Virus genome (UHGV): UHGV-0084588 | From: a virus | Length of the DNA: 64,000 bases | Direction: 5' to 3' (one strand) | Notes under the pieces: generated by a model | Told to the model about the DNA's origin: nothing | The model's database searches: none | What the model saw: only the letters and a program-made list of their open reading frames with translations | Part shown: positions 3,448 through 23,637 of the stretch, piece after piece | How the letters are laid out: each line of letters begins with the position of its first letter | Numbering within the stretch: position 1 is the first letter of the stretch | Position numbers and translations under genes: made by a program

Positions 3448-4008
3448 GTGACTGCTTACGTACCTGATTTAAGTTTGTCCTCAGCCGAACTAGTGGTCGC
3501 TTTAATCAACCACGATAACGGTTCACGGTTGTCTCTAAGCGAAATCCGTATTAGCAACACTACGGCAAACCCATCCCCGACCACTTCGCGTCGTAACACA
3601 CTGACAGAGATTACAAAAATCAGGAAACCTGATGGTGCTTCTGTAGTTGTTTATTACGACCGTTTGGATGCGGACGAAGTGTTAGCGTCTGAACCTATTT
3701 TGATTTCGTTAGATGGTACTGAAGACAACCTTCGTGACATTTTAGGTGTTGTAAATGAATTCTGCGGAACGAACTTACAACCCGAGGATTTACGTGCTTC
3801 AGATATCACCTTAGGTAAAGAACCCATTGCTGTCAACGTTGCTGACGATTCCCCTGCGTGGATGAATGCGTTTATGGTGACGTTATTTGATACAACCGAA
3901 CGGGCATTGGCAAACGAAGAAGATGCAATCTTCTGTATTGATGATGAGGCCGTTCTTACCTTTGAGGTTCCAGATGACGGTACGGCTGAAGAAAATCCGG
4001 CTATATGA
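3448..4008 (+). CDS. fibre-associated paralog-family protein (family A, copy 1)
   Basis: GTG start with GGGAGG RBS 5 nt upstream (the ATG at 3403 lies inside the terminator hairpin); paralogous to 10163..10678 (VPDLSL, LINHDNG, CG.NLQP.DL motifs) and more distantly to 18506, 19368, 22511 and 23107. Confidence 0.6.
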   Translation: MTAYVPDLSLSSAELVVALINHDNGSRLSLSEIRISNTTANPSPTTSRRNTLTEITKIRKPDGASVVVYYDRLDADEVLASEPILISLDGTEDNLRDILGVVNEFCGTNLQPEDLRASDITLGKEPIAVNVADDSPAWMNAFMVTLFDTTERALANEEDAIFCIDDEAVLTFEVPDDGTAEENPAI

Positions 4009-4078
4009 GCTTGACGCTTTTACTGGTAATGGAGGCCAAAGTAAACTTTTATCAAGACTTAGTAAACCCAGATCATGA
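3974..4078 (+). pseudogene. truncated remnant of a tail-fibre N-terminal anchor domain
   Basis: 34-codon ORF MTVRLKKIRLYELDAFTGNGGQSKLL... closely resembles the N-termini of the fibre at 4213 (MAKAVKKIRLHDLRPYTGDIGEGVLLF) and of 10678 (MAELVGKVRIHELETLSEDITGVVVLA); overlaps the end of 3448..4008 in another frame, as the intact pair does at 10678. Confidence 0.4.
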
Positions 4079-4157
4079 GAACGCGGAATTGGACATCACT
4101 TTCACGTTAGAAGTTGATGGATTAAAACCAGTATAATAATCCGCTTATAAAAATGTT

Positions 4158-4190
4158 GGGGAGGTGCTTTACCTCCCCAGATCTTTTAGC
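4158..4190 (+). promoter_or_regulatory. stem-loop upstream of the tail-fibre start
   Basis: Perfect 8-bp inverted repeat GGGGAGGT-gcttt-ACCTCCCC followed by a short T-rich stretch, after a TATAAAAA box; terminator or 5' UTR structure. Confidence 0.4.
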
Positions 4191-4212
4191 TCCAGATAGA
4201 GAATTAAATATC

Positions 4213-7200
4213 ATGGCTAAAGCGGTAAAGAAAATACGTTTACACGATTTGCGTCCATACACCGGGGATATCGGTGAAGGCGTTTTACTTTTTTCGAAAG
4301 ACGAAAAAGATTATAAGTTACCCGTCCGCGAAATCGTTGCGGATATTGACACCGTCAGAAACGCGGTTGCTGATGCACAAACAGCTGCAGCCAAATCGCA
4401 GCAGTCTGCAACAGAAGCTACGCAAGCAAAAAATTTAGCGGAAACCGCGAAGCAACAAACTGACACGTTAGCTTCCACAGTCAGTGAGCAAGCGGGAACC
4501 GTTGCCACTAAAACTGCTGAAGTTAACAAAAAACACGCTGAAGTTTTAGCAGCGAAAACTGCCGTAGATACTGTTTCACAATCAGTAAATGAGAAGGCTC
4601 AAGCTGTCGCCACATCCGAACAATCTGTGACGGCTACGGCGGCTGATGTAACTAAGAAAGCAGAAACGGTTACGCAACAGGCCGGACAAGTTCAACAGAC
4701 GGCTACCAGCGTTGAAAATACCGCAGCTTCAGTCGAGGCCAGTAAAGGTGCAGTGGAGAAAATCGCTGCACAGGTCGCGAAAGATAAAGAAAGCTCAGAA
4801 GGGGCAGCTACGCGTTCGGAGTCAGCTGCCCTACGTGCGGAGAAAATCGCTGCCCAAGGATTAGTTGACGCTACTACAACCGGTAAAGGTATTGTTAAAC
4901 TTAACGATACCCTGACAAGCGATTCCGTGACTGAGGCTGCTACACCGTCCACGGTTAAACAGCTGAACGACGATTTACAGTTAAAAGCCAATAAACATTC
5001 GCCGAATTTTACGGGTAACCCGACATCCCCAAAACCGCCGAAGGACTCGAATGACACGAGTATCTCCACAACGTCCTGGGTGCGTGACGCGATTGCGGAA
5101 TTGGTTGGTTCTTCACCCGAGACGCTAAATACCTTAGCGGAATTAGCTGAGGCGTTAGGTAATGACCCTAACTTCGCAACAACGATCACTGAGGAACTTG
5201 CGCAGAAACAACCTCTCAGCCCGTTACTCACCGCTATTGCCGCAGTCACCACAGCGGCAAACAAACTCATGTATTTCACCGGCAGTAATAAAGTCGGATT
5301 AACAGATTTTACAGAAACGGCCAGATCCTTGTTAGCGAAAGGGTCAACTGCGGATATCATTAACTTCCTGGGTTTGAAACCCACCGTTGATAAAGCAAAC
5401 GGCGCATTACAGAAAAACTCTAACGGTGCTGATATCCCAAATAAAGAAACTTTTGCTCGCAACATCGGCCTATCTCCTGATACCTATCTGCGTTTCCGTG
5501 GCGAAATGCCTGTAGATGCTGATATTAACACATTTGCTCCAGATGCTAATTACACAGGAACATGGTCCAAGTCGACATCAACCAATGCGTCGATGGCAAA
5601 ACACTTCCCAGAAGACGGTGCAGTCGGTTATCTGGAAGTGTATAAAGCGGGCAACTACAGTGGAGCGCAACGTTTTACCTGCCGTAATGGTAACGTGTAC
5701 AACCGTATGTTGTCAGGTGCGTGGAACGGAACTAATGGCCCGTGGTCACCGTGGAGAATGGTAACTACCGGTGTACGTCCGTTATCTACATCGATCGATC
5801 TGAACTCCTTAGGCGGCGCTGAGCACATGGGTAACTGGCGTAACTCGTCCAGTTCGTTAGCGGTGTTCGACAGACATTATCCTGAAGAGGGCGGTAATGC
5901 GCAAGGCGTATTAGAAGTCATGGAAGGCGGTCTTTATGGACGGTTGCAACGATACACCACACGACATGGTACGATGTATGTCCGTGGTTTGACTGCGACT
6001 TGGGATTCTTCTAATCCGCAGTGGGAAGATTGGATTCAGGTTGGGTATCAGGTAGACGGTGCCTACTATAAGGGTAGCTTTAACGACTTAACTAAACCGG
6101 GCCGCTTTAGTGTTACCGGTGAGGCTACAGACAGTCCGTTAACAGACTCTGCTGGCGCAACCTTGCTAGGTGTTTGCGAAGTTACCTTACGCTTAGACGG
6201 TTCAGGCGTTGAACAAAATTATACCACATACGGTACAGGCGCAACTTCGAAAGGTCGCAAGTTCCAACGAATTCGTACAGGAAACGCCTGGAGCGAATGG
6301 CGAGAGATTTTCACATCCTATTCACTCCCGTTGACTTTAGGGATCGGTGGGGTTGCTGCTAAGGTCGATCCGTTAGACTGGCAAACATTCGACTTCGTTC
6401 CTGGCCAGATGATAAGTACACCGTTGAATACCATGAAAAATATTCCTGCGGGAATGGATTGGGGTGTTATCGACGGTAACTTGGTCACTATTCTTGTAGG
6501 GGCGTCGGAGGACACCGGTACTGGCCGGAGTATGTTGGTCTGGCGTGGTACAGTGTCTACTGCTAACTATCGCTTCTTTGCTGTTCGCGTCGCTGGTGAA
6601 AAGGGTAAACGTACTATTACTAGCCGCCAGATGCCCGTATTGAATGCAGCGCATACGTGGGCAGAAAAACAGACCTTTGCAAAAGGGTTATCGGGCGAAT
6701 TGACAGGTAATGCGTCAACGGCAACAAAACTGAAAACAGCCCGTTTAATCGGCGGTGTAAGTTTCGACGGTAGCGGCGACATTAGCCTCCCTGGTGTGAA
6801 CCAACAGGGTAATCAAAACACCTCTGGGAACGCGGGAACCGCAACCAAATTACAAACGGCTCGAAACATCAACGGTGTGAAATTTGATGGGTCTAGAGAC
6901 ATCAATATCAACACGTTGGTAGGACGTGGACGTGTTACTGCACTGTCTGGTTCAAACAAAGGTACACCCGGTATTCAGATGTACGAAGTTTACAATAACG
7001 GTTATCCAACCGCTTATGGTAACTTACTGCATTTGGGTGGCGCTACTGCGCTAGGTGAAGGCGAGCTGTTAATCGGATGGCCGGGGACGAGCGGTGCGCA
7101 CGCGCCTGTTTATATTCGTAGTCGACGTGATACGGCTGATGCACCGTGGTCAGATTGGGCACAAGTTTACACTGCCCGTGACAGCATTCCTGGCGTAAAT

Positions 7201-8655
7201 GCCACCGGTAATCAAGATACTACCGGCAACGCCGCTACCGCGACGAAACTGAAAACCGCTCGCAGGATCGGAGGCGTTACCTTTGACGGTACAGGTGATA
7301 TCAATTTACCGGGCGTTAACCAGCAAGGCAACCAGAATACGACAGGTAATGCAGCGACCGCTACTAAGTTACAAACCGCACGTAAGATCGGCGGTGTGCT
7401 TTTCGATGGGACAAAAGACGTTAATCTTCCTGGCGTAAACCAAACCGGTAACCAATCGACTACGGGGAATGCGGCGACAGCGACTAAGCTCCAGACTGCG
7501 CGAAATATAGGTGGTGTAGCTTTTGATGGTACTAAAGACATCAGTTTACCTGGAGTAAACCAAACAGGTAATCAGGCGACTACCGGAAACGCAGCCACGG
7601 CAACAAAGTTGCAAACCGCAAGAACCATTAACGGTATCGCATTTGACGGCACTAGAAATATATCGTTAGGACCTGCCGATATAGGTTGTCCGGCATCGCC
7701 TAGTGGTTGGTTAGAAACTGGCAAAGATGGCGGCGCAATAACTACAGCACAGCTAGTGACGTTATTGAAAAATAACGGCGCATTTACCACAAGATCGTGG
7801 GTTGCTCGCTGTGCATGGGCTTATGCCGCTAGTGCGTCCATACCACACAGCGAGACGGGTTGTGGTGTTATTCCGTTAGCTGGGGCCGTTATAGAAGTGA
7901 TTAGTAACGGTAATAGCACAAACAACTACACGATCCGTATAACGACTGCCACAACGGCGAGCGTCGGTGGCGCACTCACTAATGCGGAGTTTATCTACGT
8001 ATTTAACGGCGATACATACTCACCAGGCTGGCGTCGTGCTTACAATACGAGAAACAAGCCAACTGCTGCAGAAGTGGGTGCACTACCTTCGGGGGGCGGT
8101 ACTATAGGCGGCGATTTAACCGTTAACGGTAAATTGGCCACTAAATACCCTGATTTTCGAATCGCTTACGGTACCTACGGTTTTATTTTACGTAACGACG
8201 GTGCCAATACCTATTTCTTAGTAACCGACGCCGGACAAGCCGCAACGGGTTCCTGGAACGGATTACGCCCGTTGTCTTTTAATAATTCTAACGGCCAAGT
8301 AAACTTTGGACATAACGTTACTGGCAACGGTAACGGTTCGTTTAACGACGTACAGATTCGTTCTGACCGTCGTAACAAACGTAATCTGGTGAAGCTGGAT
8401 AAAGCTTTGGATCGGTTAGAGTTACTAACCGGTTATTTGTACGAAATTCAGCATCCGGATGACGGCTGGCAGACTTCTGTAGGTCTAATTGCTCAGGACG
8501 CATTAGAAGCGTTACCTGAACTTGTGTCTGAGGATGATGATGCCATTTCAGGCGAAAAACGTTTACGTCTAAACTACAATGGCGTTATTGCGCTGTTAGT
8601 AGAGGGTATGAAAGCGTTGCGTCAAGAGGTTAACGAAATTAAAGGAAGATCCTAA
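4213..8655 (+). CDS. long tail fibre protein with C-terminal intramolecular chaperone (S74-like)
   Basis: 1480 aa from the ATG at 4213. N-terminal Ala/Gln/Thr-rich segment; four copies of a W-containing ~70-aa knob-like domain; six 40-aa repeats (GNQNTTGNAATATKLQTAR.IGGV.FDGT.D..LPGVNQ) of the phage tail-fibre repeat type; C-terminal ~97 aa (SDRRNKRNLVKLDKALDRLELLTGYLYE...) resembles the self-cleaving chaperone of T5 pb1 / K1F endosialidase. Confidence 0.85.
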   Translation: MAKAVKKIRLHDLRPYTGDIGEGVLLFSKDEKDYKLPVREIVADIDTVRNAVADAQTAAAKSQQSATEATQAKNLAETAKQQTDTLASTVSEQAGTVATKTAEVNKKHAEVLAAKTAVDTVSQSVNEKAQAVATSEQSVTATAADVTKKAETVTQQAGQVQQTATSVENTAASVEASKGAVEKIAAQVAKDKESSEGAATRSESAALRAEKIAAQGLVDATTTGKGIVKLNDTLTSDSVTEAATPSTVKQLNDDLQLKANKHSPNFTGNPTSPKPPKDSNDTSISTTSWVRDAIAELVGSSPETLNTLAELAEALGNDPNFATTITEELAQKQPLSPLLTAIAAVTTAANKLMYFTGSNKVGLTDFTETARSLLAKGSTADIINFLGLKPTVDKANGALQKNSNGADIPNKETFARNIGLSPDTYLRFRGEMPVDADINTFAPDANYTGTWSKSTSTNASMAKHFPEDGAVGYLEVYKAGNYSGAQRFTCRNGNVYNRMLSGAWNGTNGPWSPWRMVTTGVRPLSTSIDLNSLGGAEHMGNWRNSSSSLAVFDRHYPEEGGNAQGVLEVMEGGLYGRLQRYTTRHGTMYVRGLTATWDSSNPQWEDWIQVGYQVDGAYYKGSFNDLTKPGRFSVTGEATDSPLTDSAGATLLGVCEVTLRLDGSGVEQNYTTYGTGATSKGRKFQRIRTGNAWSEWREIFTSYSLPLTLGIGGVAAKVDPLDWQTFDFVPGQMISTPLNTMKNIPAGMDWGVIDGNLVTILVGASEDTGTGRSMLVWRGTVSTANYRFFAVRVAGEKGKRTITSRQMPVLNAAHTWAEKQTFAKGLSGELTGNASTATKLKTARLIGGVSFDGSGDISLPGVNQQGNQNTSGNAGTATKLQTARNINGVKFDGSRDININTLVGRGRVTALSGSNKGTPGIQMYEVYNNGYPTAYGNLLHLGGATALGEGELLIGWPGTSGAHAPVYIRSRRDTADAPWSDWAQVYTARDSIPGVNATGNQDTTGNAATATKLKTARRIGGVTFDGTGDINLPGVNQQGNQNTTGNAATATKLQTARKIGGVLFDGTKDVNLPGVNQTGNQSTTGNAATATKLQTARNIGGVAFDGTKDISLPGVNQTGNQATTGNAATATKLQTARTINGIAFDGTRNISLGPADIGCPASPSGWLETGKDGGAITTAQLVTLLKNNGAFTTRSWVARCAWAYAASASIPHSETGCGVIPLAGAVIEVISNGNSTNNYTIRITTATTASVGGALTNAEFIYVFNGDTYSPGWRRAYNTRNKPTAAEVGALPSGGGTIGGDLTVNGKLATKYPDFRIAYGTYGFILRNDGANTYFLVTDAGQAATGSWNGLRPLSFNNSNGQVNFGHNVTGNGNGSFNDVQIRSDRRNKRNLVKLDKALDRLELLTGYLYEIQHPDDGWQTSVGLIAQDALEALPELVSEDDDAISGEKRLRLNYNGVIALLVEGMKALRQEVNEIKGRS
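6689..6909 (+). repeat. tandem 120-nt coding repeats (block 1, about 2 units)
   Basis: Repeated nucleotide units encoding ...TGNASTATKLKTAR.IGGV.FDGS.DI.LPGVNQ...; the minus-strand ORF 6567..6782 is a shadow of these. Confidence 0.7.
7189..7669 (+). repeat. tandem 120-nt coding repeats (block 2, 4 units)
   Basis: Units begin at about 7189, 7309, 7429 and 7549 (CCTGGCGTAAAC / CCGGGCGTTAAC ... GGTAA.CA...AC.AC.GG.AA.GC.GC.AC.GC.AC.AA); the minus-strand ORF 7212..7541 is a shadow. Confidence 0.8.
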
Positions 8656-9437
8656 TGGCAGTTGTCGGCGTAGGTGGTTGGATTGGTTCTTCAGCAAAAG
8701 CTGAAGCTGGTAACGAATGGATGTCTGGCGCGATGCGCACACTTGGTGTGCCGGTTCCAGGCTGGATGTCGCAATTGGCGGGAAAATCAAAAGAGGTCCA
8801 TTATTCTATTGGTGCTAACCATAGCTATAATAAGGATACTCTTATTAACTATTTACGTTCTTTAGGCTCTACTGCTGTCGTTGTGACTATTACGGGGGAT
8901 TTAGTGTCCCATAGTAGCACGGTTCCTTGTTTAGAATTCCCTAGCAATCTTCCAAATTCGTATATTACCCTCATCATCAATCCTGGGGTTACAGTATACG
9001 GCAGAGGAGGCAACGGCGGTTCTAACTCACCAGGCGGTGCAGGTGGAACCGCAATACAGAACGGAATAGGAAACAGACTGCGTATAACCAACCGTGGCGC
9101 TATTGCCGGAGGCGGTGGCGGCGGTGGCGGCGGTAACAGGGGTAGACTAACATTTGGTGGTGGCGGTGGTCGCCCATTCGGTGCTGGTGGGTCTTCCTCT
9201 CATATGAGTTCCGGTGCGGCTGCTGGTACTATTTCCGCTCCTGGTAGAGGATCTGTTGGTGAGGGGTCTCTTAGTGCATATACAGGCGGTTCGGGTGGTA
9301 ATGTCGGTGCTGCTGGAGGAAGATGTAATACTCATGGTAACGGTACAGAATATAACGGCGGAGCAGCTGGTAAAGCTGTTACTGGTAATGCGCCAAGATG
9401 GGACGCAGTAGGTGCAATATATGGTTCACGTGTTTAA
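8655..9437 (+). CDS. gp38-like tail-fibre adhesin with glycine-rich motifs
   Basis: N-terminus MAVVGVGGWIGSSAKAEAGNEWMS and the YGRGGNGGSNSPGGAGG / GGGGGGGGG / GGGGGRPFGAGGS segments match, from memory, the T2/T6-type gp38 adhesin; start overlaps the fibre stop (TAATG). Confidence 0.75.
   Translation: MAVVGVGGWIGSSAKAEAGNEWMSGAMRTLGVPVPGWMSQLAGKSKEVHYSIGANHSYNKDTLINYLRSLGSTAVVVTITGDLVSHSSTVPCLEFPSNLPNSYITLIINPGVTVYGRGGNGGSNSPGGAGGTAIQNGIGNRLRITNRGAIAGGGGGGGGGNRGRLTFGGGGGRPFGAGGSSSHMSSGAAAGTISAPGRGSVGEGSLSAYTGGSGGNVGAAGGRCNTHGNGTEYNGGAAGKAVTGNAPRWDAVGAIYGSRV
9108..9170 (+). repeat. GGC/GGT codon run encoding poly-glycine
   Basis: ggaggcggtggcggcggtggcggcggt... low-complexity triplet repeat inside the gp38-like gene. 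Confidence 0.6.
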
Positions 9438-9497
9438 TTTGAAAAAGTATGGGGGTACTCACTCCCCTCCTCGCATCTTTCAAAAGGTGGGGGTAAA

Positions 9498-10010
9498 ATG
9501 GCGGTAGCATCAGGATGGGTCGGATCTTCAGCTAAGAATGAAACTGGCGAACAATGGATGAGCGCTGCGGGTAGTAAATTAGGATTGGGTAGACCATTTA
9601 TGATGAGTCAAATGGTGGGCCGATCTACGGGTTGTAAAATTGCGACCGCTTACTACAAAGGGAATCCTCCTGATAAAGTTGAAAACTGGGGGGCCGTAGG
9701 TTCAGATTGGCCATTGGCTGAAAAGAACAAAGGCACAATTACTGGTGCTTCGAGCTGTGGTTTAGGTCGTTTAGTGGGGATCGTACTTACGCAAGCTCAC
9801 TACATTTCTGGTGTTCCACCCACTGCGGCTTTATACATCGCAGGAGGAAGGGCAAGTAATATTACAGTAACAGTTGGTGGGGTCTCACAAGTTTTCACCT
9901 ATAATAGTGTTATTAACGGTTTTCACTATTACTGGCAAGGAACACCTAGTTCGGCCTTTATAGCAGCAATGAAGAGAACGGGTGTTACACAAGATTTGAA
10001 AATTAGTTAA
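9498..10010 (+). CDS. gp38-like adhesin paralog (no glycine-rich region)
   Basis: N-terminus MAVASGWVGSSAKNETGEQWMSAAG parallels 8655..9437, with a different C-terminal domain; GGGGGTAAAATG RBS. Confidence 0.6.
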   Translation: MAVASGWVGSSAKNETGEQWMSAAGSKLGLGRPFMMSQMVGRSTGCKIATAYYKGNPPDKVENWGAVGSDWPLAEKNKGTITGASSCGLGRLVGIVLTQAHYISGVPPTAALYIAGGRASNITVTVGGVSQVFTYNSVINGFHYYWQGTPSSAFIAAMKRTGVTQDLKIS

Positions 10011-10162: not shown

Positions 10163-10678
10163 ATGGGGCAATTCGTGCCGGATTTGTCGTTAACTTCACT
10201 TAACATGGTTATTTCACTGGTTAACCATGACCTCCAGCTCGACTTGCAAGAGAACGAGGTTGAAGTCAGCGACGTAAAGACCAGTAACGAAATGGATCGT
10301 GACACCACTGCTGTTGTAAAGATAAAACGTCCGGACAACAGAACGTTGCAGATATATTACAACCGTTTAACCGCAGAGCGGTGGTTAAACCAGCAACCTA
10401 TCCTAGTAAAGGTTTCCGGTAATGGCTTTACCGCACACGATCTAATCGACGGAATTAACGCGGCTTGTGGTTGTAATTTACAACCCGACGATCTTACCGA
10501 CGAATCATTTACCGTAGGGAAAGACGCTGTAACGTTACAGGTTTCACCCAACTCGTTAGGTTATAAAGGCCAATTCTCCGTTCTGGTTTTCGGTAACGAT
10601 GAAGAAGCTGCTGTAGTAAAAGACAACGATTTAATCGTTACCGCAGATAACCGTGTCTTAACATTCGGAGGCCGCTAA
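10163..10678 (+). CDS. fibre-associated paralog-family protein (family A, copy 2)
   Basis: Paralog of 3448..4008; AGGGAG RBS; stop overlaps the next start (TAATG). Confidence 0.6.
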   Translation: MGQFVPDLSLTSLNMVISLVNHDLQLDLQENEVEVSDVKTSNEMDRDTTAVVKIKRPDNRTLQIYYNRLTAERWLNQQPILVKVSGNGFTAHDLIDGINAACGCNLQPDDLTDESFTVGKDAVTLQVSPNSLGYKGQFSVLVFGNDEEAAVVKDNDLIVTADNRVLTFGGR

Positions 10679-11298
10679 TGGCTGAACTGGTAGGAAAGGT
10701 GCGCATTCATGAACTGGAGACACTTTCAGAAGACATCACGGGTGTAGTAGTCTTAGCGTCTAAGGAACAAACTGAATACCAACTCCCGATTGAGAAATTA
10801 GGGGGTACCGAGGTTACAGTGAGTCCGTCAGCGAATAACATCCTTAAGTCTAACAACGATGGGTTGTTTGTTGACGGCACTCATCCGATTATACCAAAAA
10901 TGGATGCAAAAACCTTATCGGGAAATATGGTGGTAGAAAAAACGTTGACAGGTGGTGCGGTAATCTGCAAAACAACAGTTGACGTTAATAATAGACTGGG
11001 GGTTTCGCAATTATCTGGAGTGTCAATTTATAGCCAGTGTCTGTTGGAAAATAAATTGGTTTATCTGGGAGAAGACGGCAGTATTATTGATGCGTACTTC
11101 TACATTAGTAATACAAAGACCACAGCCAGTACAATAACCCACACCATTCGTGTTGTTTTAGCGAAGATACCCTCTAAAGTTATCGATATCACCGATTTGT
11201 CTGAAACCGAAGTACAATACGAGAATAGTAATTTACCTGTTAAGATCGTTATTAAACATCTTGCAGGGACAACACTTTCCCAGAACGGAATGAAATAA
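10678..11298 (+). CDS. short fibre-like protein sharing the N-terminal anchor of the long tail fibre
   Basis: N-terminus MAELVGKVRIHELETLSEDITGVVVLASKEQTEYQLP aligns with the first ~40 aa of 4213..8655; followed by a strong terminator. Confidence 0.6.
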   Translation: MAELVGKVRIHELETLSEDITGVVVLASKEQTEYQLPIEKLGGTEVTVSPSANNILKSNNDGLFVDGTHPIIPKMDAKTLSGNMVVEKTLTGGAVICKTTVDVNNRLGVSQLSGVSIYSQCLLENKLVYLGEDGSIIDAYFYISNTKTTASTITHTIRVVLAKIPSKVIDITDLSETEVQYENSNLPVKIVIKHLAGTTLSQNGMK

Positions 11299-11303
11299 AT
11301 TTT

Positions 11304-11350
11304 AGGTAGTAGGGGCTTAAGCCCCTACTACCTTTTCTTTTTTTTATTTT
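11304..11350 (+). terminator. rho-independent terminator
   Basis: AGGTAGTAGGGGC-ttaa-GCCCCTACTACCT hairpin followed by a T-run. Confidence 0.8.
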
Positions 11351-13605: not shown

Positions 13606-13980
13606 ATGTCATTACTGTTATACAAATTCAGATGTTGGCTAGACACTTCGTTTAAAACCTGGGCTTGCGGCAAGAATGTCACAACGGTAGTTAAATCGGG
13701 TGACTGGTATACGGAAATTATTACATTAGCAAATGGAGGATTGCAAAACGTACAAGTTCGTAACGTAGTTGTTAGAATAGGACGTGAAGGAGGTGCAATC
13801 TTCAACTCTGAATACTATCAAGTTTCTGCCCTGGAGTTAAAAAACGGTCCGATTTTATTTATCGGTACAGCACAACACCTTTACGATACAGTTGTTAAGT
13901 TTGCTGAAAGGGTAAAACGTTTAAATGATTCGCTTAGTAAGTTTATTAAAGAAACTGAACGAACTACGGTGGAGATTTAA
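13606..13980 (+). CDS. hypothetical protein (tandem paralog 1)
   Basis: 124 aa; shares WACGKNVTTVVKSGDWYTE...NG.L.NV.VR.V.V..GR.GG..F.SE and LF..TAQ..YD with 13984..14370. Confidence 0.6.
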   Translation: MSLLLYKFRCWLDTSFKTWACGKNVTTVVKSGDWYTEIITLANGGLQNVQVRNVVVRIGREGGAIFNSEYYQVSALELKNGPILFIGTAQHLYDTVVKFAERVKRLNDSLSKFIKETERTTVEI

Positions 13981-13983
13981 AAG

Positions 13984-14370
13984 ATGCGTTTATTTTACTT
14001 AAAAAGGCGTTTGTCATTAAAAGCCCAACTGTTTGTTAACGAGAAAGTTAAAAACTGGCTGTGCGGTAAAAGGGTACAATATGTCGTTAAAGAAGGAGAC
14101 TGGTATACGGAGGTTGTGACTTCCCCTAACGGTGAACTTATAAACGTTACTATTCGTGACGTTATGGTTAAGGTTGGTAGGGGTGGCGGTCGGTTGTTTG
14201 AATCGGAAACTATAAGAGTCGCTGCTAAACAATTGAAAGATGGTCGAGTTTTATTCAATGTTACCGCCCAGAAATACTACGACAATTTATTCGAGTGTCA
14301 ACGAGCAATGGACAGAATGACCCGTGAGATGCGAAGAATGCACATTACGGAGATCACAATAGGAGTTTAA
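13984..14370 (+). CDS. hypothetical protein (tandem paralog 2)
   Basis: 128 aa; paralog of 13606..13980. Confidence 0.6.
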   Translation: MRLFYLKRRLSLKAQLFVNEKVKNWLCGKRVQYVVKEGDWYTEVVTSPNGELINVTIRDVMVKVGRGGGRLFESETIRVAAKQLKDGRVLFNVTAQKYYDNLFECQRAMDRMTREMRRMHITEITIGV

Positions 14371-15870: not shown

Positions 15871-16647
15871 ATGAAAACTATCGAGTTTAAGAATAGTAGT
15901 CTTTGGGCATACACGCACATCATTACGAGTTTCCTGAGAAACGTTACTCCACATCTTGCTTATCAGATTTATGGGAATGAGCTCACTATCGGTGGTTTTA
16001 ACGAGGATGAATTAAAACGAGCAAAAGAGTTCATTGACGATGTTCTTCGTGGTGAAGCAACGTGTTTAGTTGCAAGTTACGTTGCTAAAGACAAAGGAAG
16101 ATTAAACGTCATGGCAATTTTCAGATCGTTCTCCGAAAAAGTATACGAAGTTGAGAAGATTAGTCATACCGTTTATATTGTTTACTTTAAACGTTCGGCG
16201 GAGAAAAACGCTGATAAAATTCTGGAGTATTTCGACTGTAACCCGGGGGAAGGTATGGATGTCTATACGCTCGGTTACGATGGGGTACCTCACCGGAATA
16301 ACCTTATTCGCATTGACGAACCTTTTTCAGTCAATGACGATTCCTCGCCTATAGAGATGGTTCTGGTACACAAAGATCGTTTCGCGCATTACGACTCTGA
16401 TACTATTCAACGTGTCCTGAACAACGTTAATATACAGTTTTCACAAACCGAGCACTTAGTACGTGCATGTCTTAGGTCTAATGGCACAACATCATTTTTC
16501 TTCGAACGTCAAACCGTTTGGCAAACTTATCTGGCTCTGATGGAAGAACTTGATAGGATCGAGCCAGTTCAGGTTGGTGCAAATTGCTTATATTGGATAA
16601 AAACAAAAGGGTTCATGAATGAAAACGCTCAATTCAGATTTGCGTGA
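15871..16647 (+). CDS. hypothetical protein
   Basis: 258-aa ORF; AAAAGGAAAATAAA-ATG context. Confidence 0.6.
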   Translation: MKTIEFKNSSLWAYTHIITSFLRNVTPHLAYQIYGNELTIGGFNEDELKRAKEFIDDVLRGEATCLVASYVAKDKGRLNVMAIFRSFSEKVYEVEKISHTVYIVYFKRSAEKNADKILEYFDCNPGEGMDVYTLGYDGVPHRNNLIRIDEPFSVNDDSSPIEMVLVHKDRFAHYDSDTIQRVLNNVNIQFSQTEHLVRACLRSNGTTSFFFERQTVWQTYLALMEELDRIEPVQVGANCLYWIKTKGFMNENAQFRFA

Positions 16648-17047
16648 TTACATCCGTCAGTACCCAGCCAGTATTCCTGTACTGGCTTCACTTACGCTTT
16701 CAGGTACTGACGTTAACATCTTAACGGTGGAACAGTTCCACGAGATAATAAAAACCGCCTATAACTCCATTACCGCAACGTCAGTACGTAAACGTTGCGA
16801 TTATCCCGACGGGGATTTCGGCACCGAGATGTTTACCGATTACGCAGTTGCGTTTCTGTTAGGACGACACTGCCTCGATAAACTTAACACTGCAGTAGAA
16901 GGGGAAACAGTGACGGAAATAGTCAACGCTTGGCAGCAACGTATTCTGAGCGACCCTTACTGCCGCCAGGCGTTAAAACGAATGTCCACAACGGCGATTA
17001 CAAACGACCAGCGTGCTTTAGAGTTCTTTAAGCACAACTACAGCTAA
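16619..17047 (+). CDS. hypothetical protein (paralog of 17908..18339)
   Basis: 142 aa; N-terminal LNSDLRDYIRQYP.SIPVLA parallels LNDEIRNYIRNNPIALGVLA of 17908. Confidence 0.55.
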   Translation: MKTLNSDLRDYIRQYPASIPVLASLTLSGTDVNILTVEQFHEIIKTAYNSITATSVRKRCDYPDGDFGTEMFTDYAVAFLLGRHCLDKLNTAVEGETVTEIVNAWQQRILSDPYCRQALKRMSTTAITNDQRALEFFKHNYS

Positions 17048-17069
17048 TTTACCAAAAGGAAAAAATGAC

Positions 17070-17831
17070 ATGTTTAATATCGAAATTACCCCGCTCGTTA
17101 AAACTGAAATCCGTCCGGTTCCTGAAGCACAGTTACTCGATCAACTTTATCGCATATTCCTGGATAAAGGTGTACATTTCCGTGTAGAGCAGGTCAACGA
17201 TGAAAGCATCGTATTCTACTGGACTCACTGCAACGATTATCTTTGCGACACTATTGCGAAAGAAATCGGTGAGTTACTCAACTCAGCAGAAGGTACCACG
17301 AACACTCGGGTGGAAACGACCGAGACTGAACAACCGAAAGTAGAAGAACAGCAGAAAGACGAACCACACGTCCTCTGGTACGAAGGTAAGAAGATTAAGG
17401 AAATTAAAGAAGCGTTAGAGACCCTCTATCCCGACGATTTAGGTATTTATTCGGATAACGATAAGATCGTCGTTCGATTGAAGAAAGACGATCGTAATCT
17501 CATGGAAGAAATTAGTTCCATCGCTGAGCTGATCGATAACGATGCCGTTCGACTTATTTCGATTCATGGTATCGGAAAAGATACCGCTGATGAACTCATG
17601 CGTGTGGCTGTGCACGAACACAAGGAGAAAATTCATCAATCCGTTTACAAAGGTGAAACACTCACCGTTTTGATCGACAACGATGTTGAGGTTTTCAAAT
17701 CATTAACGAACTTTTTGCGAATTGTTTCAACGGATTCTTATATCGAAAAAGCACGTGCCTTGGTTCTCGAAAAGCTTTTTAATATTTACAACAAAGATTG
17801 CGATTGTCCTAATTGTCAAAAACGTCGTTAA
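17070..17831 (+). CDS. hypothetical protein with helix-hairpin-helix-like motif and C-terminal Cys cluster
   Basis: 253 aa; LISIHGIGKDTADELM resembles an HhH DNA-binding motif; C-terminal CDCPNCQKRR. Confidence 0.5.
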   Translation: MFNIEITPLVKTEIRPVPEAQLLDQLYRIFLDKGVHFRVEQVNDESIVFYWTHCNDYLCDTIAKEIGELLNSAEGTTNTRVETTETEQPKVEEQQKDEPHVLWYEGKKIKEIKEALETLYPDDLGIYSDNDKIVVRLKKDDRNLMEEISSIAELIDNDAVRLISIHGIGKDTADELMRVAVHEHKEKIHQSVYKGETLTVLIDNDVEVFKSLTNFLRIVSTDSYIEKARALVLEKLFNIYNKDCDCPNCQKRR

Positions 17832-17854
17832 TTAACGACATTCTAAATTCAACC

Positions 17855-17885
17855 AAGGGGTGGTTTACCGCCCCTCTATTATTGT
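17855..17885 (+). terminator. rho-independent terminator
   Basis: AGGGGTGG-ttta-CCGCCCCT hairpin followed by a T-rich tract. Confidence 0.6.
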
Positions 17886-17907
17886 ATTTACCTAAAGGAG
17901 TATTAAA

Positions 17908-18339
17908 ATGTTTTTCGTATTAAATGATGAAATCCGTAACTACATTCGTAACAATCCGATTGCTCTGGGCGTTTTAGCAGGTTTCTGTCGCCCAAATACT
18001 GACTTCGATTTAGTTAAGTTAGAAGAATATCAGGAAATTGTGAATACTAACTACATGCACATCTGTAGCTGGGGTAAACGTCCTCGTGAAGAGTACCCTG
18101 TAGGTGAGTTAGGTGACACTATGCATCGTGACCAGAATCTGATGCACGAATTCGTTGAATACACACTGGAAAATCTTAACTATCCGCTTCTGGTCGACAC
18201 TGTACCAGAAATGGTTGACGAATGGTTAAGTCGTGTTTACAATGACCCTACTACCAACAAGTTACTGAGTCAGATGTCGCAAACTTCTCGTGATATCGAC
18301 ACTCGCACCCTAATGTACTTAGCACACAACGTTCGCTAA
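17908..18339 (+). CDS. hypothetical protein (paralog of 16619..17047)
   Basis: 143 aa; preceded by the conserved TTTACCTAAAGGAGTATTAAAATG context. Confidence 0.6.
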   Translation: MFFVLNDEIRNYIRNNPIALGVLAGFCRPNTDFDLVKLEEYQEIVNTNYMHICSWGKRPREEYPVGELGDTMHRDQNLMHEFVEYTLENLNYPLLVDTVPEMVDEWLSRVYNDPTTNKLLSQMSQTSRDIDTRTLMYLAHNVR

Positions 18340-18505: not shown

Positions 18506-19354
18506 ATGTCTCTTACGTCAAAACAGAAACTGCTAAAACTCATCAACACTGAAAACAATATTGTTCCGCCATTGACCTTCAGTGATGTTGATATCGGCGA
18601 ACCTACTGGTACTGGGGTTGATACCCAGGTGGTTCTGACTTCTAAACTCAAAGGCGATGAGTCTACTACTTTAACGGTGACTTACCATCGTCGTAATTTG
18701 CCAGAATACCTAACAGGCGAGTTGGTATTCGGTAACGACGGTGTTGTAACTGCTGCAGATTTGCTTAATGCAATCAACGCAAAATACGATTTAAATATTC
18801 TGCCGTCAGATATCGTTGATGCGAAAGTTGAAGGTAAAACCCACCAACTTGCCGCTAACGAGAAATCCTACGAGTGGTGTGGCGAAGTGACACTTACGCT
18901 ACGCGATCCTATTGATCTGGCTAAACTGCTACCTGTTACTCAATTAGAAAACCTGGTAGAGTATCCGTCCACCAAGAAAGGTAACGCTGCGGTTTATTCT
19001 TATCCGATTGACTTCACCGCAGAAAAAGATTACCTTGATCCGATTACCATTAACGACACCGTAGACTTAGTAGAGTTAGCTACTAAACTGACTAACGTTG
19101 TTGACGAGAAATGGGTAAGCGTACCTAAGAACGCTGCTAATAACTTGTTCGGTGCTAAGGTTATCTACGATGGCCCTACCGCAGGTTTCGAAGGCGCAAA
19201 TGCGAAGTACACGCGTGTGCTGGTACTCGCCCTAAGCGGTATGTGTTCTAACCTGACCGGTAAACTGTTAATTCACTTTAACGGAACCGATCGTCCGAAG
19301 TCGAAGATTGAATTAGCCAAGACTAATTCGGTCTTACCGGGATTCTTAGATTAA
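18506..19354 (+). CDS. paralog-family protein (family A-related)
   Basis: 282 aa; N-terminus LINTENN...FSDVDIGEPTG...TLTVTYHRRNL...DLLNAINAKYDLNILPSDI aligns with 3448, 10163, 19368, 22511 and 23107. Confidence 0.6.
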   Translation: MSLTSKQKLLKLINTENNIVPPLTFSDVDIGEPTGTGVDTQVVLTSKLKGDESTTLTVTYHRRNLPEYLTGELVFGNDGVVTAADLLNAINAKYDLNILPSDIVDAKVEGKTHQLAANEKSYEWCGEVTLTLRDPIDLAKLLPVTQLENLVEYPSTKKGNAAVYSYPIDFTAEKDYLDPITINDTVDLVELATKLTNVVDEKWVSVPKNAANNLFGAKVIYDGPTAGFEGANAKYTRVLVLALSGMCSNLTGKLLIHFNGTDRPKSKIELAKTNSVLPGFLD

Positions 19355-19367: not shown

Positions 19368-19844
19368 ATGACCAGTCAAGAAACTATCTTCGACCTTATT
19401 AAAAAGGCTAACCCAGACGCCGAGCTCGACACCGCCAAAGTCACATTGGGTGAGCCCGTCGTAAGTACCGGTACGTACAACACCGAAATTACGGTTGCGC
19501 CGGTGAAGAATCTCGGTTATGTTAATAAGCAAACGTTCCAGTATAACCGCATTGATGCAGGTTTGTATTTCCTCAACGTATTGCCGAAACTGTTAGTTGA
19601 AACAGCCACCACGACTGCGGACTTGCTGCCTGTAATTAACGAGCAGTATGGCTTAACCCTTACCGAAGACGATGTGTGGGTAGAGCAGGTTGGTGCGTTA
19701 CCGCTAGACGGCAGTGCAATCGAGCACGGTATTTTCTTCCGCCCAGAGTGTCTAACCTGGGTCGGTGGTTTTACAGTGCGTGTTGCGCGTAAACCGTCTG
19801 TCGAGACACCGCCAGCTAAGCCATCGCGCGCTAAGAAGAAATAA
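19368..19844 (+). CDS. paralog-family protein (family A-related)
   Basis: 158 aa; same motif series (DLIKKANPD...VTLGEP...QYNRID...ADLLPVINEQYGLTLTEDDV). Confidence 0.6.
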   Translation: MTSQETIFDLIKKANPDAELDTAKVTLGEPVVSTGTYNTEITVAPVKNLGYVNKQTFQYNRIDAGLYFLNVLPKLLVETATTTADLLPVINEQYGLTLTEDDVWVEQVGALPLDGSAIEHGIFFRPECLTWVGGFTVRVARKPSVETPPAKPSRAKKK

Positions 19845-19848: not shown

Positions 19849-19882
19849 AGGGTGGGGTAATCCCACCCTCTTTTCTTTTTTT
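19849..19882 (+). terminator. rho-independent terminator
   Basis: AGGGTGGGG-taat-CCCACCCT hairpin followed by a T-run. Confidence 0.8.
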
Positions 19883-19906
19883 GTGTAAAAAGAGGAGTTA
19901 AACAAA

Positions 19907-22370: not shown

Positions 22371-22433
22371 ACTTTTCACCTTTTTTATAAAAAGTTAAAA
22401 AAAATATTTTTACAGACAACCCTTACTGCCGAC

Positions 22434-22463: not shown

Positions 22464-22510
22464 CCGAACAATACTATGCAATCCACCCTGCCAACCACGA
22501 GGTAAATACG

Positions 22511-23041
22511 ATGGCTAAAACCTTCCAACAGCAACTTATTGACGCTGTTAATACCAAAAACAGTACCCTGGACCCCGCACTCACCGTAGCTGATGTTGAC
22601 TTTGGTGCTGTTGCTGAGTTCACCGGAGAAGCTGGCCGCAACACTAAAATTACCCTGACCGCCAAGGAAGAAAGCCAGCACTTCAAGGGCGAGAAAGAAT
22701 TCCACTATACTCGTCTTTCATGCGACATCGTTGGTGAAGTTGAAGTAACTGCACCTGCTACCGATTTCGATTCAGCAGCGAAAATCCTGGCGAAAGTTAA
22801 CGCAGCCATGGCTGAGAAAGGGTACACCGATGACGAGTTCGGTGAAAACGACCTGCAAAGTATTTCTCGTGAAGAAGAAGGCAAAACCATTTACGTAGTA
22901 ACTGTTGTGGCCGGACACCTGAAGTTCCTGCCAGGCACTGTTGCAACGTATAAAGTTACTCCTCCGGCTCCTGAGAAAGTAGCACTGGACGGTCTGGAAG
23001 GTGAACTGGATAGCTTCACTGCACCGCTTCCTAAAGAGTAA
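22511..23041 (+). CDS. paralog-family protein (family A-related)
   Basis: 176 aa; paralog of 23107..23637 and of the 18506/19368/3448/10163 family. Confidence 0.6.
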   Translation: MAKTFQQQLIDAVNTKNSTLDPALTVADVDFGAVAEFTGEAGRNTKITLTAKEESQHFKGEKEFHYTRLSCDIVGEVEVTAPATDFDSAAKILAKVNAAMAEKGYTDDEFGENDLQSISREEEGKTIYVVTVVAGHLKFLPGTVATYKVTPPAPEKVALDGLEGELDSFTAPLPKE

Positions 23042-23046
23042 TTGAA

Positions 23047-23080
23047 CCGGGGGGGGGGTAACCTCCCCCGATATTTCTTT
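23047..23080 (+). terminator. hairpin terminator containing a G10 homopolymer
   Basis: CCGGGGGGGGGG-taa-CCTCCCCCG followed by a T-rich stretch. Confidence 0.5.
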
Positions 23081-23106
23081 AACCCGCATTTTAAGGATTT
23101 AAGATA

Positions 23107-23637
23107 ATGGCCGCTACTAACCAGATGATGTTGGTCGCGCTTTATAATGCTGCTAACACTGAGCTACCACATCAGATTACTGATAAAGAAGTGTCCTTTG
23201 GTCTCCCTACTGCGCTGGAAGGCAAAAGTAAGAATACCAAAGTTACCATGACTGCACTACCGGGTTCTGAGAATTTCAAAGGCGCAATCGAGCTGCATTA
23301 CGATCGTCTGGAGCCGGGTGTTGTAGGACGTATTGAACTAACTGACGATTTGTCTCGTTGGGAAGATCAAAACGAATTGCGCGCATGGTTACAATATTAC
23401 ATCAACAAAGTAAAACCTGACGACGCTATCGCACCTGGTGACGTTGTGTACAGCACCGAAGACCAGAAAGACGAACATGATAACGTCACACTGCGTACGG
23501 TAACGTGCACCGTTACTGAAAAGAACCTCCGTTATAAACCGGGTGTAATGGCAACTTTCGTAATTACGCCGAAAGTTGTTGACAATCGTATTGACCTGGC
23601 CACTACCAACGGCGAGCTGGACGGCTTTACGTCCTAA
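23107..23637 (+). CDS. paralog-family protein (family A-related)
   Basis: 176 aa; TAAGGATTTAAGATAATG context. Confidence 0.6.
   Translation: MAATNQMMLVALYNAANTELPHQITDKEVSFGLPTALEGKSKNTKVTMTALPGSENFKGAIELHYDRLEPGVVGRIELTDDLSRWEDQNELRAWLQYYINKVKPDDAIAPGDVVYSTEDQKDEHDNVTLRTVTCTVTEKNLRYKPGVMATFVITPKVVDNRIDLATTNGELDGFTS

What the first reader, a model, noticed from the sequence alone, without database searches (positions are those of the whole stretch)
3448..23637. Six-member dispersed paralog family (3448, 10163, 18506, 19368, 22511, 23107)
All six proteins share an N-terminal series ([LI]-I-N-x-x-N..., V-x-x-G-x-P, T-[LV]-T, Y-x-R-[LI], DLL-x-x-IN-x-x-Y-x-L). Two copies are coupled to anchor-bearing fibre genes and two pairs are tandem. 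They may be fibre-associated accessory or decoration proteins that expanded by duplication.
Basis: seen in the sequence. Interest (0 to 1): 0.5.

Follow-up and report, generated by a model that had tools for sequence, protein, structure and literature searches.

The report
DUF7941 bead proteins of a jumbo phage
The six genes are real relatives of one another, but they belong to an already described family (DUF7941) of giant "nucleus-forming" phages, whose members are thought to link head-to-tail into filaments on the tail baseplate, so the finding is correct but mostly not new.

Summary
All six ORFs (A 3448, B 10163, C 18506, D 19368, E 22511, F 23107) pass Pfam's curated threshold for PF25613/DUF7941, and the window holds no seventh member.

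The window comes from an undescribed relative of the chimallivirus SPN3US and is collinear with it. The family is SPN3US "paralog family B" and the Goslar/phiKZ DUF7941 family. Models of C and E match only one solved chain, the N-terminal domain of phiKZ gp127 in the outer baseplate. The fold is neither Ig-like nor chaperone-like.

The members differ by what follows the ~150-aa N-terminal domain (NTD):
- **E, F and C** carry a conserved "L-[DN]-G-[FL]" peptide. C carries it twice, plus the only C-terminal domain.
- **A and B** carry a different, repeated hydrophobic–Asp tail. Each is followed at once by a receptor-binding gene that starts with a shared 45-aa anchor. This two-gene cassette recurs in relatives with swapped fibre bodies.
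- **D** has no such tail.

The best reading is head-to-tail beads (E, F, C), fibre-linked adaptors or assembly factors (A, B) and a possible cap (D). The location is disputed: phiKZ and Goslar work places the family on the baseplate, SPN3US proteomics places it in the head. Verdict: a new member of a known kind, of moderate interest.

The parts
3448..4008 (+). A: DUF7941 N-terminal domain (NTD) plus a 'type II' tail (DAIFCIDDE-AVLTFEVPDD, nt 3922-3978). It corresponds to SPN3US gp122.
   Evidence: Pfam 68.6 bits; phrog_2935; 34% identical to B; gp122 match; start supported by RBS and the upstream terminator.
3974..4078 (+). Relic of an anchor-bearing gene overlapping the 3' end of A (MTVRLKKIRLYELDAFTGNGG..., 34 codons). 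It keeps only the first ~20 residues of the anchor.
   Evidence: Anchor HMM hit, E 5e-4; sequence; also present in related contigs as 43-53-aa ORFs.
4156..4180 (+). Terminator-like hairpin between the relic and the fibre gene. The ORF start at 4153 runs through it and is spurious.
4213..8655 (+). Fibre 1 (1480 aa): a 45-aa N-terminal anchor (nt 4213-4347), a T-even-type long-tail-fibre shaft and a C-terminal S74 chaperone domain.
   Evidence: Anchor alignment; many tail-fibre PHROGs from residue ~74 of the 1500-aa ORF query (ATG 4153), i.e. ~54 of the real protein; Phage_fiber_2 and Peptidase_S74 in orthologues; nt 5755-7011 are 78-91% identical to T-even-type fibre/adhesin genes.
8655..10010 (+). 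Two gp38-like adhesin genes (8655-9437 and 9498-10010) that belong to the fibre 1 cassette.
   Evidence: phrog_2056 and phrog_1121; Gp38_N in orthologues.
10163..10678 (+). B: DUF7941 NTD plus a type II tail (DLIVTADN-RVLTFGGR, nt 10628-10675). It is the second gp122-type gene.
   Evidence: Pfam 62.5 bits; homologues in the lineage are 72-99% identical, with most divergence in the tail.
10678..11298 (+). Fibre 2 (206 aa): the same 45-aa anchor (nt 10678-10812) plus a short body. Its start overlaps B's stop. This slot is swapped between relatives.
   Evidence: Anchor HMM 102 bits; body matches phrog_33169. In relatives the slot holds a 706-aa SASA esterase protein, a 731-aa protein or a 133-aa protein.
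18506..19354 (+). C: the only full-length DUF7941 protein. It has the NTD (to ~18919), a linker plug VTQLENLVEYP (18935-18967), a C-terminal domain (~18986-19285) and an extra C-terminal plug IELAKTNSVLPGFLD (19307-19351).
   Evidence: Pfam 178.6 bits over model positions 5-275; 44-46% identical to the first gene of the SPN3US/pEa_SNUABM_29 array; NTD model matches 9xqd_0; only ORF with the C-terminal domain; extra plug conserved in the lineage only.
19368..19844 (+). D: NTD only, ending in a Pro/Lys-rich 17-aa tail (nt 19791-19841) with no plug motif. It is a candidate chain cap, or the truncated remnant of an array gene.
   Evidence: Pfam 104.2 bits; tail sequence; conserved orthologue P0107.
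22511..23041 (+). E: NTD plus a type I plug (VALDGLEGELDSFTAP, nt 22979-23026). It corresponds to SPN3US gp160 and Goslar gp23.
23107..23637 (+). F: tandem paralogue of E, NTD plus a type I plug (IDLATTNGELDGFTS, nt 23590-23634).
   Evidence: 31% identical to E; phrog_4862; Pfam 37.9 bits; the tail is the most conserved part of the E/F family.

Best explanation
The six genes encode the DUF7941 family of a new SPN3US-like chimallivirus (a jumbo, nucleus-forming phage).

**The shared part.** Each protein starts with the same ~150-aa alpha/beta domain, the 'socket'. This is the fold of the phiKZ gp127 N-terminal domain in the outer baseplate.

**The part that differs.** What follows the domain differs between members and, I infer, sets the role of each.
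- **E and F** end in a short conserved peptide (x-L-[DN]-G-[FL]-x, the 'plug'). They are orthologues of the most abundant members in other phages.
- **C** has this plug in its linker, then the only C-terminal domain, then a second plug.
- **How these three would work.** The plug/linker of one protomer docks on the N-terminal domain of the next. The proteins would thus chain head-to-tail into flexible bead-like filaments that start at the peripheral baseplate and serve host finding. This step is inferred from AlphaFold and EM work on Goslar, not tested here.
- **D** has a socket but no plug. If it is functional, it can only end a chain.
- **A and B** carry a different tail of two hydrophobic-Asp repeats. 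Each is translationally coupled to a receptor-binding gene that begins with a shared 45-aa anchor. I infer that they bring, or hold, that particular fibre at the DUF7941 scaffold, as a low-copy adaptor or a transient assembly factor.

**Shown here:** homology, fold, synteny, tail classes and cassette conservation. **Inferred:** polymerisation, polarity, location and the individual roles.
For: **Membership and fold**
- All six exceed the Pfam gathering score for PF25613.
- A profile of the six hits PDB chain 9xqd_0 (phiKZ gp127), E 1.5e-5.
- The C model hits only 9xqd_0 by Foldseek: E 1e-5, probability 1.0, TM 0.62.

**Orthology and abundance**
- The window is collinear with SPN3US gp122-gp170.
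- C is most similar to Goslar gp22, and E/F to Goslar gp23.
- Goslar gp23 is estimated at ~2144 copies and gp22 at ~577 copies per virion.
- SPN3US gp160 ranks with the tail sheath in abundance.

**Published mechanism**
- Purified Goslar gp22 forms filaments.
- AlphaFold predicts that the linker/CTD of one protomer docks on the next NTD.
- The phiKZ gp127 NTD is modelled at the end of the gp139 band, with gp126 fitted next to it.

**Plug conservation**
- In 150 diverse representatives the motif follows the NTD, both at C-termini and between tandem NTDs.
- The strict motif occurs after 61 of 213 NTDs, against 2 of 213 control windows. The loose motif occurs in 124 against 18.
- It is the most invariant stretch of the E/F family.

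**An outward-facing role**
- The NTD is fused to Laminin_G_3 lectin domains, a GP38 adhesin domain, SPRY, Ig and beta-propeller domains.
- Natural 2x to 4x tandem NTDs exist.

**The cassette**
- An A/B-type gene is followed directly by an anchor-bearing gene in 11 of 11 cases across this lineage, SPN3US and pEa_SNUABM_29, with unrelated bodies downstream.
- Goslar gp91, which is A/B-like, sits directly upstream of fibre gp90.
Against: **Location.** SPN3US proteomics places the whole family with tailless head particles, in two different tail mutants. Goslar maps show no DUF7941 density, and that preparation also carried PhuZ and chimallin assemblies. Self-assembled filaments could therefore simply co-purify.

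**Strength of the structural evidence.**
- Only one member, in phiKZ, has been placed in a map, and that was by docking a predicted model at ~4.4 A.
- Foldseek did not link the E model to 9xqd_0.
- The C-terminal domain of the C model is unreliable.
- No multi-chain prediction could be run here, so no plug-socket contact was tested. In the monomer models the tails are not confidently docked.

**Against a stoichiometric structural adaptor role for A and B.** Goslar gp91 is estimated at ~1.2 copies against ~43 for fibre gp90, and SPN3US gp122 was not detected in wild-type virions.

**Other weaknesses.**
- The co-variation of B's tail with the anchor is confounded by physical linkage, since the two lie within about 100 bp of each other.
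- Goslar gp90 lacks the anchor.
- D may be a deletion remnant rather than a designed cap.
Confidence: 0.55

Rival explanations
1. The family is made of head proteins, either internal or ejected. They would be packaged in the capsid in high copy and delivered to the host, as proposed for SPN3US paralog family B.
For: The family B proteins, including gp138-154 and gp160, were found in head-only particles from tailless mutants and are labelled 'Head' or 'Head ejection?'. Their abundance is comparable to that of the inner-body PF12699 proteins.
Against: - They are not processed by the prohead protease, unlike the nine cleaved head proteins.
- The phiKZ gp127 NTD is modelled in the outer baseplate.
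- The NTD is fused to lectin, adhesin and glycosidase-type domains that make sense only outside the virion.
- A and B are coupled to fibre genes.
- Purified gp22 self-assembles, so co-sedimentation with heads is plausible.
Confidence: 0.2
2. A and B only: they are non-structural assembly or attachment factors for the fibre encoded next to them, and they leave the finished virion.
For: SPN3US gp122 was undetected in wild-type virions while its neighbours gp123 and gp124 were detected. Goslar gp91 is at ~1.2 copies against ~43 for fibre gp90. Gene order and translational coupling resemble fibre-plus-chaperone pairs.
Against: - They keep the full structural NTD of a virion protein family.
- Fibre 1 already has its own S74 intramolecular chaperone and gp38-type partners.
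- gp122 was detected in particles of one mutant.
- Small proteins are easily missed by mass spectrometry.
Confidence: 0.4
3. The six are capsid or fibre decoration proteins with Ig-like folds.
For: They are small, abundant and duplicated, as decoration proteins often are.
Against: There is no Ig or decoration family hit. The predicted fold is alpha/beta and matches only phiKZ gp127. The Goslar capsid was fully modelled without them.
Confidence: 0.03
4. The similarity is chance or a compositional effect, and there is no real family.
For: Several pairs (A-E, A-F, B-E, B-F, D-E, D-F) are not significant by BLASTP alone.
Against: All six pass the Pfam gathering score. hhalign gives 96% probability. 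Two members share one fold. There are 2559 related clusters in public data.
Confidence: 0.01

Closest known systems
Pfam PF25613 (DUF7941) as characterised in phage Goslar (gp22, gp23, gp31, gp33, gp34, gp86, gp91-93, gp161; bioRxiv 10.64898/2026.04.21.720040)
   Same: - Same domain, and the same split into a full-length member (C, like gp22) and short members (E/F, like gp23).
- Same neighbourhood next to a GH108-type endolysin and fibre genes.
- A short member sits just upstream of a long fibre gene (gp91 before gp90, like A before fibre 1).
   Different: - Sequence identity is only ~25-37%.
- In Goslar three members are fused to receptor-binding domains. Here the receptor-binding proteins are separate genes that carry a 45-aa anchor, which Goslar gp90 lacks.
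- C has an extra C-terminal plug.
- D is plug-less.
- The preprint describes no sequence motif and makes no link to SPN3US.
SPN3US paralog family B (gp83, gp138-154, gp160, gp237, candidate gp122; Thomas 2016, Ali 2017)
   Same: Orthology is shown by synteny: A and B correspond to gp122, C to the first array gene, and E and F to gp160. The flanking genes gp123, gp156-gp170 are collinear.
   Different: - The 17-gene array is reduced to C plus the truncated D.
- The gp122-gp123 cassette and gp160 are each doubled.
- One cassette carries a T-even-type 1480-aa fibre with gp38-like adhesins instead of the 156-aa gp123.
- The SPN3US authors place the family in the head.
phiKZ gp127 (PDB 9xqd) and gp126, outer peripheral baseplate
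   Same: Same N-terminal domain fold. It is the only solved structure that matches C and E.
   Different: Identity is 17-18%. phiKZ has only about three members. The baseplate position has not been shown for any protein of this window.
phiKZ gp131-type fibre proteins (SPN3US paralog family C, gp168-170)
   Same: These are also a paralogous set that shares an N-terminal attachment domain with variable distal parts. Their orthologues lie in the same window at 30415-44213 on the minus strand.
   Different: This is an unrelated domain. Neither the DUF7941 HMM nor the anchor HMM hits them.

Membership tests
Pfam PF25613 / DUF7941 | Sequence score above the curated gathering threshold (27 bits) | tested here: met
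   A 68.6, B 62.5, C 178.6, D 104.2, E 43.9 and F 37.9 bits.
Pfam PF25613 / DUF7941 | N-terminal globular domain with the fold of the phiKZ gp127 NTD | tested here: met
Pfam PF25613 / DUF7941 | Linker after the NTD that can dock on another NTD (head-to-tail module) | tested here: inconclusive
   A conserved post-NTD motif is present in C (twice), E and F. A and B carry a different repeat tail, and D has none. Docking itself could not be computed, because only single chains can be predicted.
Pfam PF25613 / DUF7941 | C-terminal globular domain (full-length architecture) | tested here: met
   Met only for C (model positions 5-275; CTD HMM 137 bits). The other five are NTD-only forms, like Goslar gp23.
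Pfam PF25613 / DUF7941 | Encoded by a chimallivirus | tested here: met
   The window is collinear with SPN3US (Seoulvirus, Chimalliviridae), with about 73-75% nucleotide identity in conserved genes.
Pfam PF25613 / DUF7941 | Self-assembly into filaments; presence in virions; attachment to the peripheral baseplate | not testable with these tools
   Known only from papers on the orthologues, and those papers disagree on location.
SPN3US paralog family B | Orthology by position and sequence to gp122, the gp138-154 array and gp160 | tested here: met
   tblastn matches and synteny; HMM hits to gp122, gp138-145, gp148, gp151, gp154 and gp155.
Tail-fibre assembly chaperones (Caudo_TAP, T4 gp38/gp57A type) | Match to a chaperone family or fold | tested here: not met
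   No such Pfam or PHROG hit for any of the six. The gp38-like genes of the window are separate ORFs at 8655 and 9498.
Ig-like decoration proteins (Hoc or Big_2 type) | Ig-like beta-sandwich domain | tested here: not met
   The models are alpha/beta (helix, strands, helix, strands). There are no Ig family hits and no Ig structures among the significant fold matches.

The most novel reading that the evidence does not exclude
DUF7941 could be a plug-and-socket construction kit in which the C-terminal tail encodes the assembly rule.
- L-D-G-F plugs extend the chain (E, F).
- Two plugs branch it (C).
- No plug ends it (D).
- The hydrophobic-Asp repeat tail of A and B specifically recruits whichever receptor-binding protein carries the 45-aa anchor.

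On this reading the [A/B-type gene + anchor] pair is a portable host-range cassette. It would let a jumbo phage bolt on fibres taken from unrelated phages, here a T-even long fibre with gp38 adhesins and, in relatives, a sialate-O-acetylesterase protein.
Probability: 0.25. Interest if true: 0.6.

Novelty: new member of a known kind. Interest (0 to 1): 0.38.

Why it matters
The family has had a Pfam entry since before this work. It was listed as SPN3US paralog family B in 2016-2017 and was given a mechanism in a 2026 preprint. The bare finding therefore adds a new genome, not a new kind of system.

Three results from this window could still be useful.
- **It links two literatures that do not cite each other and that disagree.** One places the family in the head, the other in a baseplate filament cloud. 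This genome has only six members in the window, against about 21 in SPN3US, which makes it a simpler system for settling the question.
- **The tail classes give concrete residues to mutate** to test head-to-tail assembly.
- **The conserved [A/B-type gene + anchor] cassette with swapped bodies points to how chimalliviruses change host range.** That is relevant for engineering jumbo phages.

Tried and rejected
- **Nucleotide search of the region against 50,697 phage records.** Only patches of the fibre gene match, at ~78-91% to T-even-type phages. The phage itself is not in that collection.
- **Word-based protein searches.** They returned almost only the same lineage, at 58-99% identity, so the alignments for structure prediction were shallow. 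As a result the C-terminal domain of the C model is unreliable.
- **Seventh member or a CTD-only member in the window.** None found.
- **The anchor in solved structures and in PHROGs.** No match. Weak tblastn matches to Felixounavirus genes (E 0.1-1) were not pursued.
- **Generality of 'type II tail then fibre gene' in four distant metagenomic contigs.** One is clear: L012, where a protein called as 2151 aa (1332 aa within the locus) follows after 3 nt. Three are ambiguous because the contigs are short.
- **Co-variation of B's tail with the anchor.** It is real but cannot be separated from linkage.
- **Readings rejected.** Ig-like decoration, fibre chaperone fold, chance similarity, and the longer ORF starts at 3403 and 4153, which run through hairpins.

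Full report

Yes. The six ORFs lie on the + strand at the stated coordinates (translations). All six exceed Pfam's curated gathering score of 27 bits for PF25613, DUF7941: A 68.6, B 62.5, C 178.6, D 104.2, E 43.9 and F 37.9 bits. In PHROGs they fall into the related 'virion structural protein' families 1037, 2935 and 3589, and E and F into phrog_4862.

Pairwise BLASTP alone supports only three pairs: A-B (34% identity), E-F (31%) and C-E. The rest needs profiles. A profile of E/F homologues against a profile of C/D/A/B homologues gives hhalign probability 96.3%, E 1.6e-9, over 127 columns that cover the whole domain. An HMM of the six finds nothing else in the window, and only C has the family's C-terminal domain.

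Y-x-R is invariant and the two Asn are nearly so. 'V..G.P' fails in A and B, and 'DLL..IN..Y.L' fails in E and F.

Likewise the fibre gene starts at ATG 4213, not 4153.

**2. What genome is this?**

The window is not close to any deposited phage at the nucleotide level. It is collinear with Salmonella phage SPN3US (Seoulvirus, Chimalliviridae) and Erwinia phage pEa_SNUABM_29.
- C is 44-46% identical to the first gene of their long paralogue array.
- A and B match SPN3US gp122.
- E and F match gp160.
- The genes between and after them match gp156-gp170.

Near-identical relatives occur as ~220-228 kb contigs in Salmonella, E. coli and Shigella assemblies and in metagenomes.

**3. What family is it?**

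It is SPN3US 'paralog family B' (about 21 members: gp83, gp138-154, gp160, gp237 and candidate gp122). It is also the DUF7941 family described for phage Goslar in April 2026.

That preprint reports the following.
- Goslar has ten members.
- gp23 is at ~2140 copies and gp22 at ~580 copies per virion.
- Purified gp22 forms filaments.
- AlphaFold models show the linker/CTD of one protomer docking on the N-terminal domain of the next.
- A 'fibre cloud' is proposed on the peripheral baseplate.

In the phiKZ atlas the gp127 N-terminal domain is modelled at the outer end of the gp139 band of the baseplate.

Here, a profile of the six hits that chain (9xqd_0, E 1.5e-5).
- The model of C (N-terminal domain confident, C-terminal domain not) has 9xqd_0 as its only significant Foldseek match: E 1e-5, probability 1.0.

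The fold is alpha/beta, not Ig-like and not a known chaperone. By sequence, Goslar gp22 is closest to C, gp23 to F and E, and gp91 to A.

**4. Family size.**

A full HMMER scan of 1.84 billion representatives finds 2559 clusters at E <= 1e-3 and 738 at E <= 1e-10. The architectures are:
- single domains of 150-200 aa;
- two to four tandem domains in one chain;
- domains fused to long C-terminal parts.

The long parts carry several Laminin_G_3 lectin domains, a GP38 adhesin domain, SPRY, Ig_2 or beta-propeller repeats. These are binding modules that make sense on the outside of a virion.

Compared with SPN3US, the window's family is contracted. The 17-gene array is reduced to C plus D. D aligns with the N-terminal domain of the second array gene and then ends in a Pro/Lys-rich tail. 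By contrast, gp122 and gp160 are each present twice.

**5. Tails, the main new descriptive result.**

In the diverse representatives the ~150-aa domain is followed within about 20 residues by a short motif, x-L-[DN]-G-[FL]-x-(Y)-(P). It occurs at the C-terminus of single-domain proteins and between tandem domains.
- The strict pattern occurs after 61 of 213 domains, against 2 of 213 control windows inside the domain.
- A loose pattern occurs after 124, against 18.
- In the E/F family this tail (D-L-x-T-T-N-G-E-L-D-G-F-T) is the most invariant stretch across homologues of 27-95% identity.

The six members sort as follows.
- **E and F** end with this motif.
- **C** has it in the linker (VTQLENLVEYP) and again at its extreme C-terminus (NSVLPGFLD). 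The second copy is conserved in this lineage but absent from other full-length members.
- **A, B, SPN3US gp122, pEa29 gp28 and Goslar gp91** instead end in two short hydrophobic-Asp/Gly repeats, such as AIFCIDDE-AVLTFEVPDD. This tail type also closes many multi-domain representatives.
- **D** and its orthologue have neither.

The preprint speaks only of a 'disordered linker' and names no motif. I take the first motif to be the conserved core of that docking linker. This is an inference.

**6. The fibre cassette.**

B's stop overlaps the start of a 206-aa gene. Its first 45 residues (MAELVGKVRIHEL...TEYQLPIEKL) match the N-terminus of the 1480-aa fibre after A, of SPN3US gp123 and of pEa29 gp27.

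Overlapping A's 3' end is a 34-codon relic that keeps only the first ~20 residues of this anchor. Then come a hairpin and the full fibre gene.

In four related ~225-kb genomes, SPN3US and pEa29, every A/B-type gene (11 of 11) is followed at once by an anchor-bearing gene, while the bodies differ completely:
- 206 aa;
- 706 aa with a SASA esterase domain;
- 731 aa;
- 133 aa;
- 156-158 aa;
- 1476-1533-aa T-even-type fibres with an S74 chaperone domain and gp38-like adhesins.

The bodies match families of other phages only from about residue 40-50 onward. The anchor is therefore a lineage-specific handle on borrowed receptor-binding proteins.

B homologues vary mostly in the tail, and each tail class comes with its own anchor variant. 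The two lie about 100 bp apart, so linkage alone could explain this.

In Goslar the A-like gp91 sits directly upstream of the P1-S-like fibre gp90 and its assembly protein gp89, but gp90 lacks this anchor. In one distant metagenomic contig a type II-tailed gene is followed after 3 nt by a fibre-like gene called as 2151 aa, of which 1332 aa lie within the locus. Three other contigs were too short to judge.

**7. Stoichiometry and location, where the evidence pulls apart.**

Orthologues of E/F and C are abundant. SPN3US gp160 has a spectral count per mass of 9.46, against 8.84 for the tail sheath. Goslar gp23 is at ~2144 copies and gp22 at ~577.

Orthologues of A/B are not. SPN3US gp122 was undetected in wild-type virions, although gp123 and gp124 were found and are not labelled as head proteins in that table. 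Goslar gp91 is estimated at ~1.2 copies against ~43 for fibre gp90. A and B are therefore more likely low-copy or transient factors than 1:1 structural adaptors.

On location, the SPN3US group finds the whole family in head-only particles of two tailless mutants. The phiKZ map and the Goslar proposal put it on the baseplate. The Goslar maps show no DUF7941 density, and that preparation also carried PhuZ and chimallin assemblies. Co-purification of self-assembled filaments could explain both data sets. Nothing I could run decides this.

**8. Best explanation and rivals.**

The best reading is a modular head-to-tail bead system.
- E and F are bulk protomers.
- C is a full-length protomer with a second plug.
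- D is a plug-less end piece, or a deletion remnant.
- A and B are fibre-specific adaptors or assembly factors for anchor-bearing receptor-binding proteins.

I put about 0.55 on this as a whole. Family membership is near certain. Polymerisation is moderately supported by others' experiments. The individual roles are my inference.

The rivals are:
- internal or ejected head proteins (0.2);
- for A and B alone, a purely non-structural assembly role (0.4 within that sub-question);
- decoration proteins (0.03);
- chance similarity (0.01).

**9. Novelty and score.**

The family, its paralogy and a mechanism are already published, so this is a new member of a known kind. Three things are new here:
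- the link between the SPN3US and Goslar literatures;
- the tail classes;
- the conserved and duplicated [A/B-type + anchor] cassette with swapped bodies, including a T-even-type fibre grafted onto a chimallivirus anchor.

These are modest and partly inferential. Interest is 0.38.

**10. Limits.**

- No multi-chain structure prediction was available.
- The alignments for the models were shallow.
- The motif classes rest on inspection plus simple patterns.
- The mechanistic source is an unreviewed preprint. Its text also contains slips: it writes 'DUF4391' and PDB '9QXD' where DUF7941 and 9XQD are meant.

Noticed in passing
3974-4078 (+): A 34-codon ORF overlapping the end of gene A starts like the fibre anchor (MTVRLKKIRLYELDAFTGNGG) and then diverges. 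It looks like the stump left when a new fibre gene replaced the original gp123-like gene. Related genomes keep 43-53-aa versions.
   Followed up: partly
4213-10010 (+): A jumbo chimallivirus carries a T-even-style long tail fibre (S74 chaperone end) plus two gp38-like adhesin genes. Nucleotides 5755-7011 are 78-91% identical to fibre/adhesin genes of RB49/JSE-type phages and 'CMS-2020a'. This points to recent horizontal transfer of the receptor-binding tip.
   Followed up: partly
10678-11298 (+) and L004, L007, L008, L009: The slot after gene B is a swap hot-spot. Close relatives carry 206 aa (as here), 706 aa with a SASA sialate-O-acetylesterase domain, 731 aa, or 133 aa plus 348 aa. All begin with the same 45-aa anchor.
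   Followed up: yes
whole window; This phage lineage is absent from the phage collection at >85% nucleotide identity. It turns up as ~220-228 kb contigs in many Salmonella, E. coli and Shigella isolate assemblies and in metagenomes. It may persist with its hosts in culture (carrier state), or it may be a common contaminant.
   Followed up: no
30415-44213 (-): Three giant paralogous ORFs (1728, 1394 and 1440 aa) lie at the position of SPN3US gp168-170, the phiKZ gp131-type baseplate fibre family. They form a second, separate paralogue family in the window. They are not hit by the DUF7941 HMM or the anchor HMM.
   Followed up: partly
13606-14370; 16619-18339; 28098-29118 (-); 48137-50705; 61478-63032: Further tandem or near-tandem paralogue pairs or triplets of unknown function (BLASTP E 1e-8 to 1e-29): 13606/13984, 16619/17908, three small ORFs at 28098-29118 on the minus strand, 48167/48733/49908, and 61493/62487.
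   Followed up: no
3385-3416, 4156-4180, 11304-11333, ~19850-19890, ~23050-23090: G+C-rich hairpins followed by T runs bracket each DUF7941 unit: before A, before fibre 1, after fibre 2, after D, and between E and F. The members therefore seem to sit in separate short transcription units, which would allow very different expression levels.
   Followed up: partly
24877-27118 (-): A pair of radical-SAM genes is conserved with SPN3US gp163 and gp164 at ~75% nucleotide identity. This is the best-conserved stretch of the window.
   Followed up: no
P0137 and other representatives: Some metagenomic proteins string four or more DUF7941 N-terminal domains in one chain with near-identical repeats (P0137: 1496 aa, with a period of ~220 aa). 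These are natural covalent versions of the proposed bead chain.
   Followed up: no
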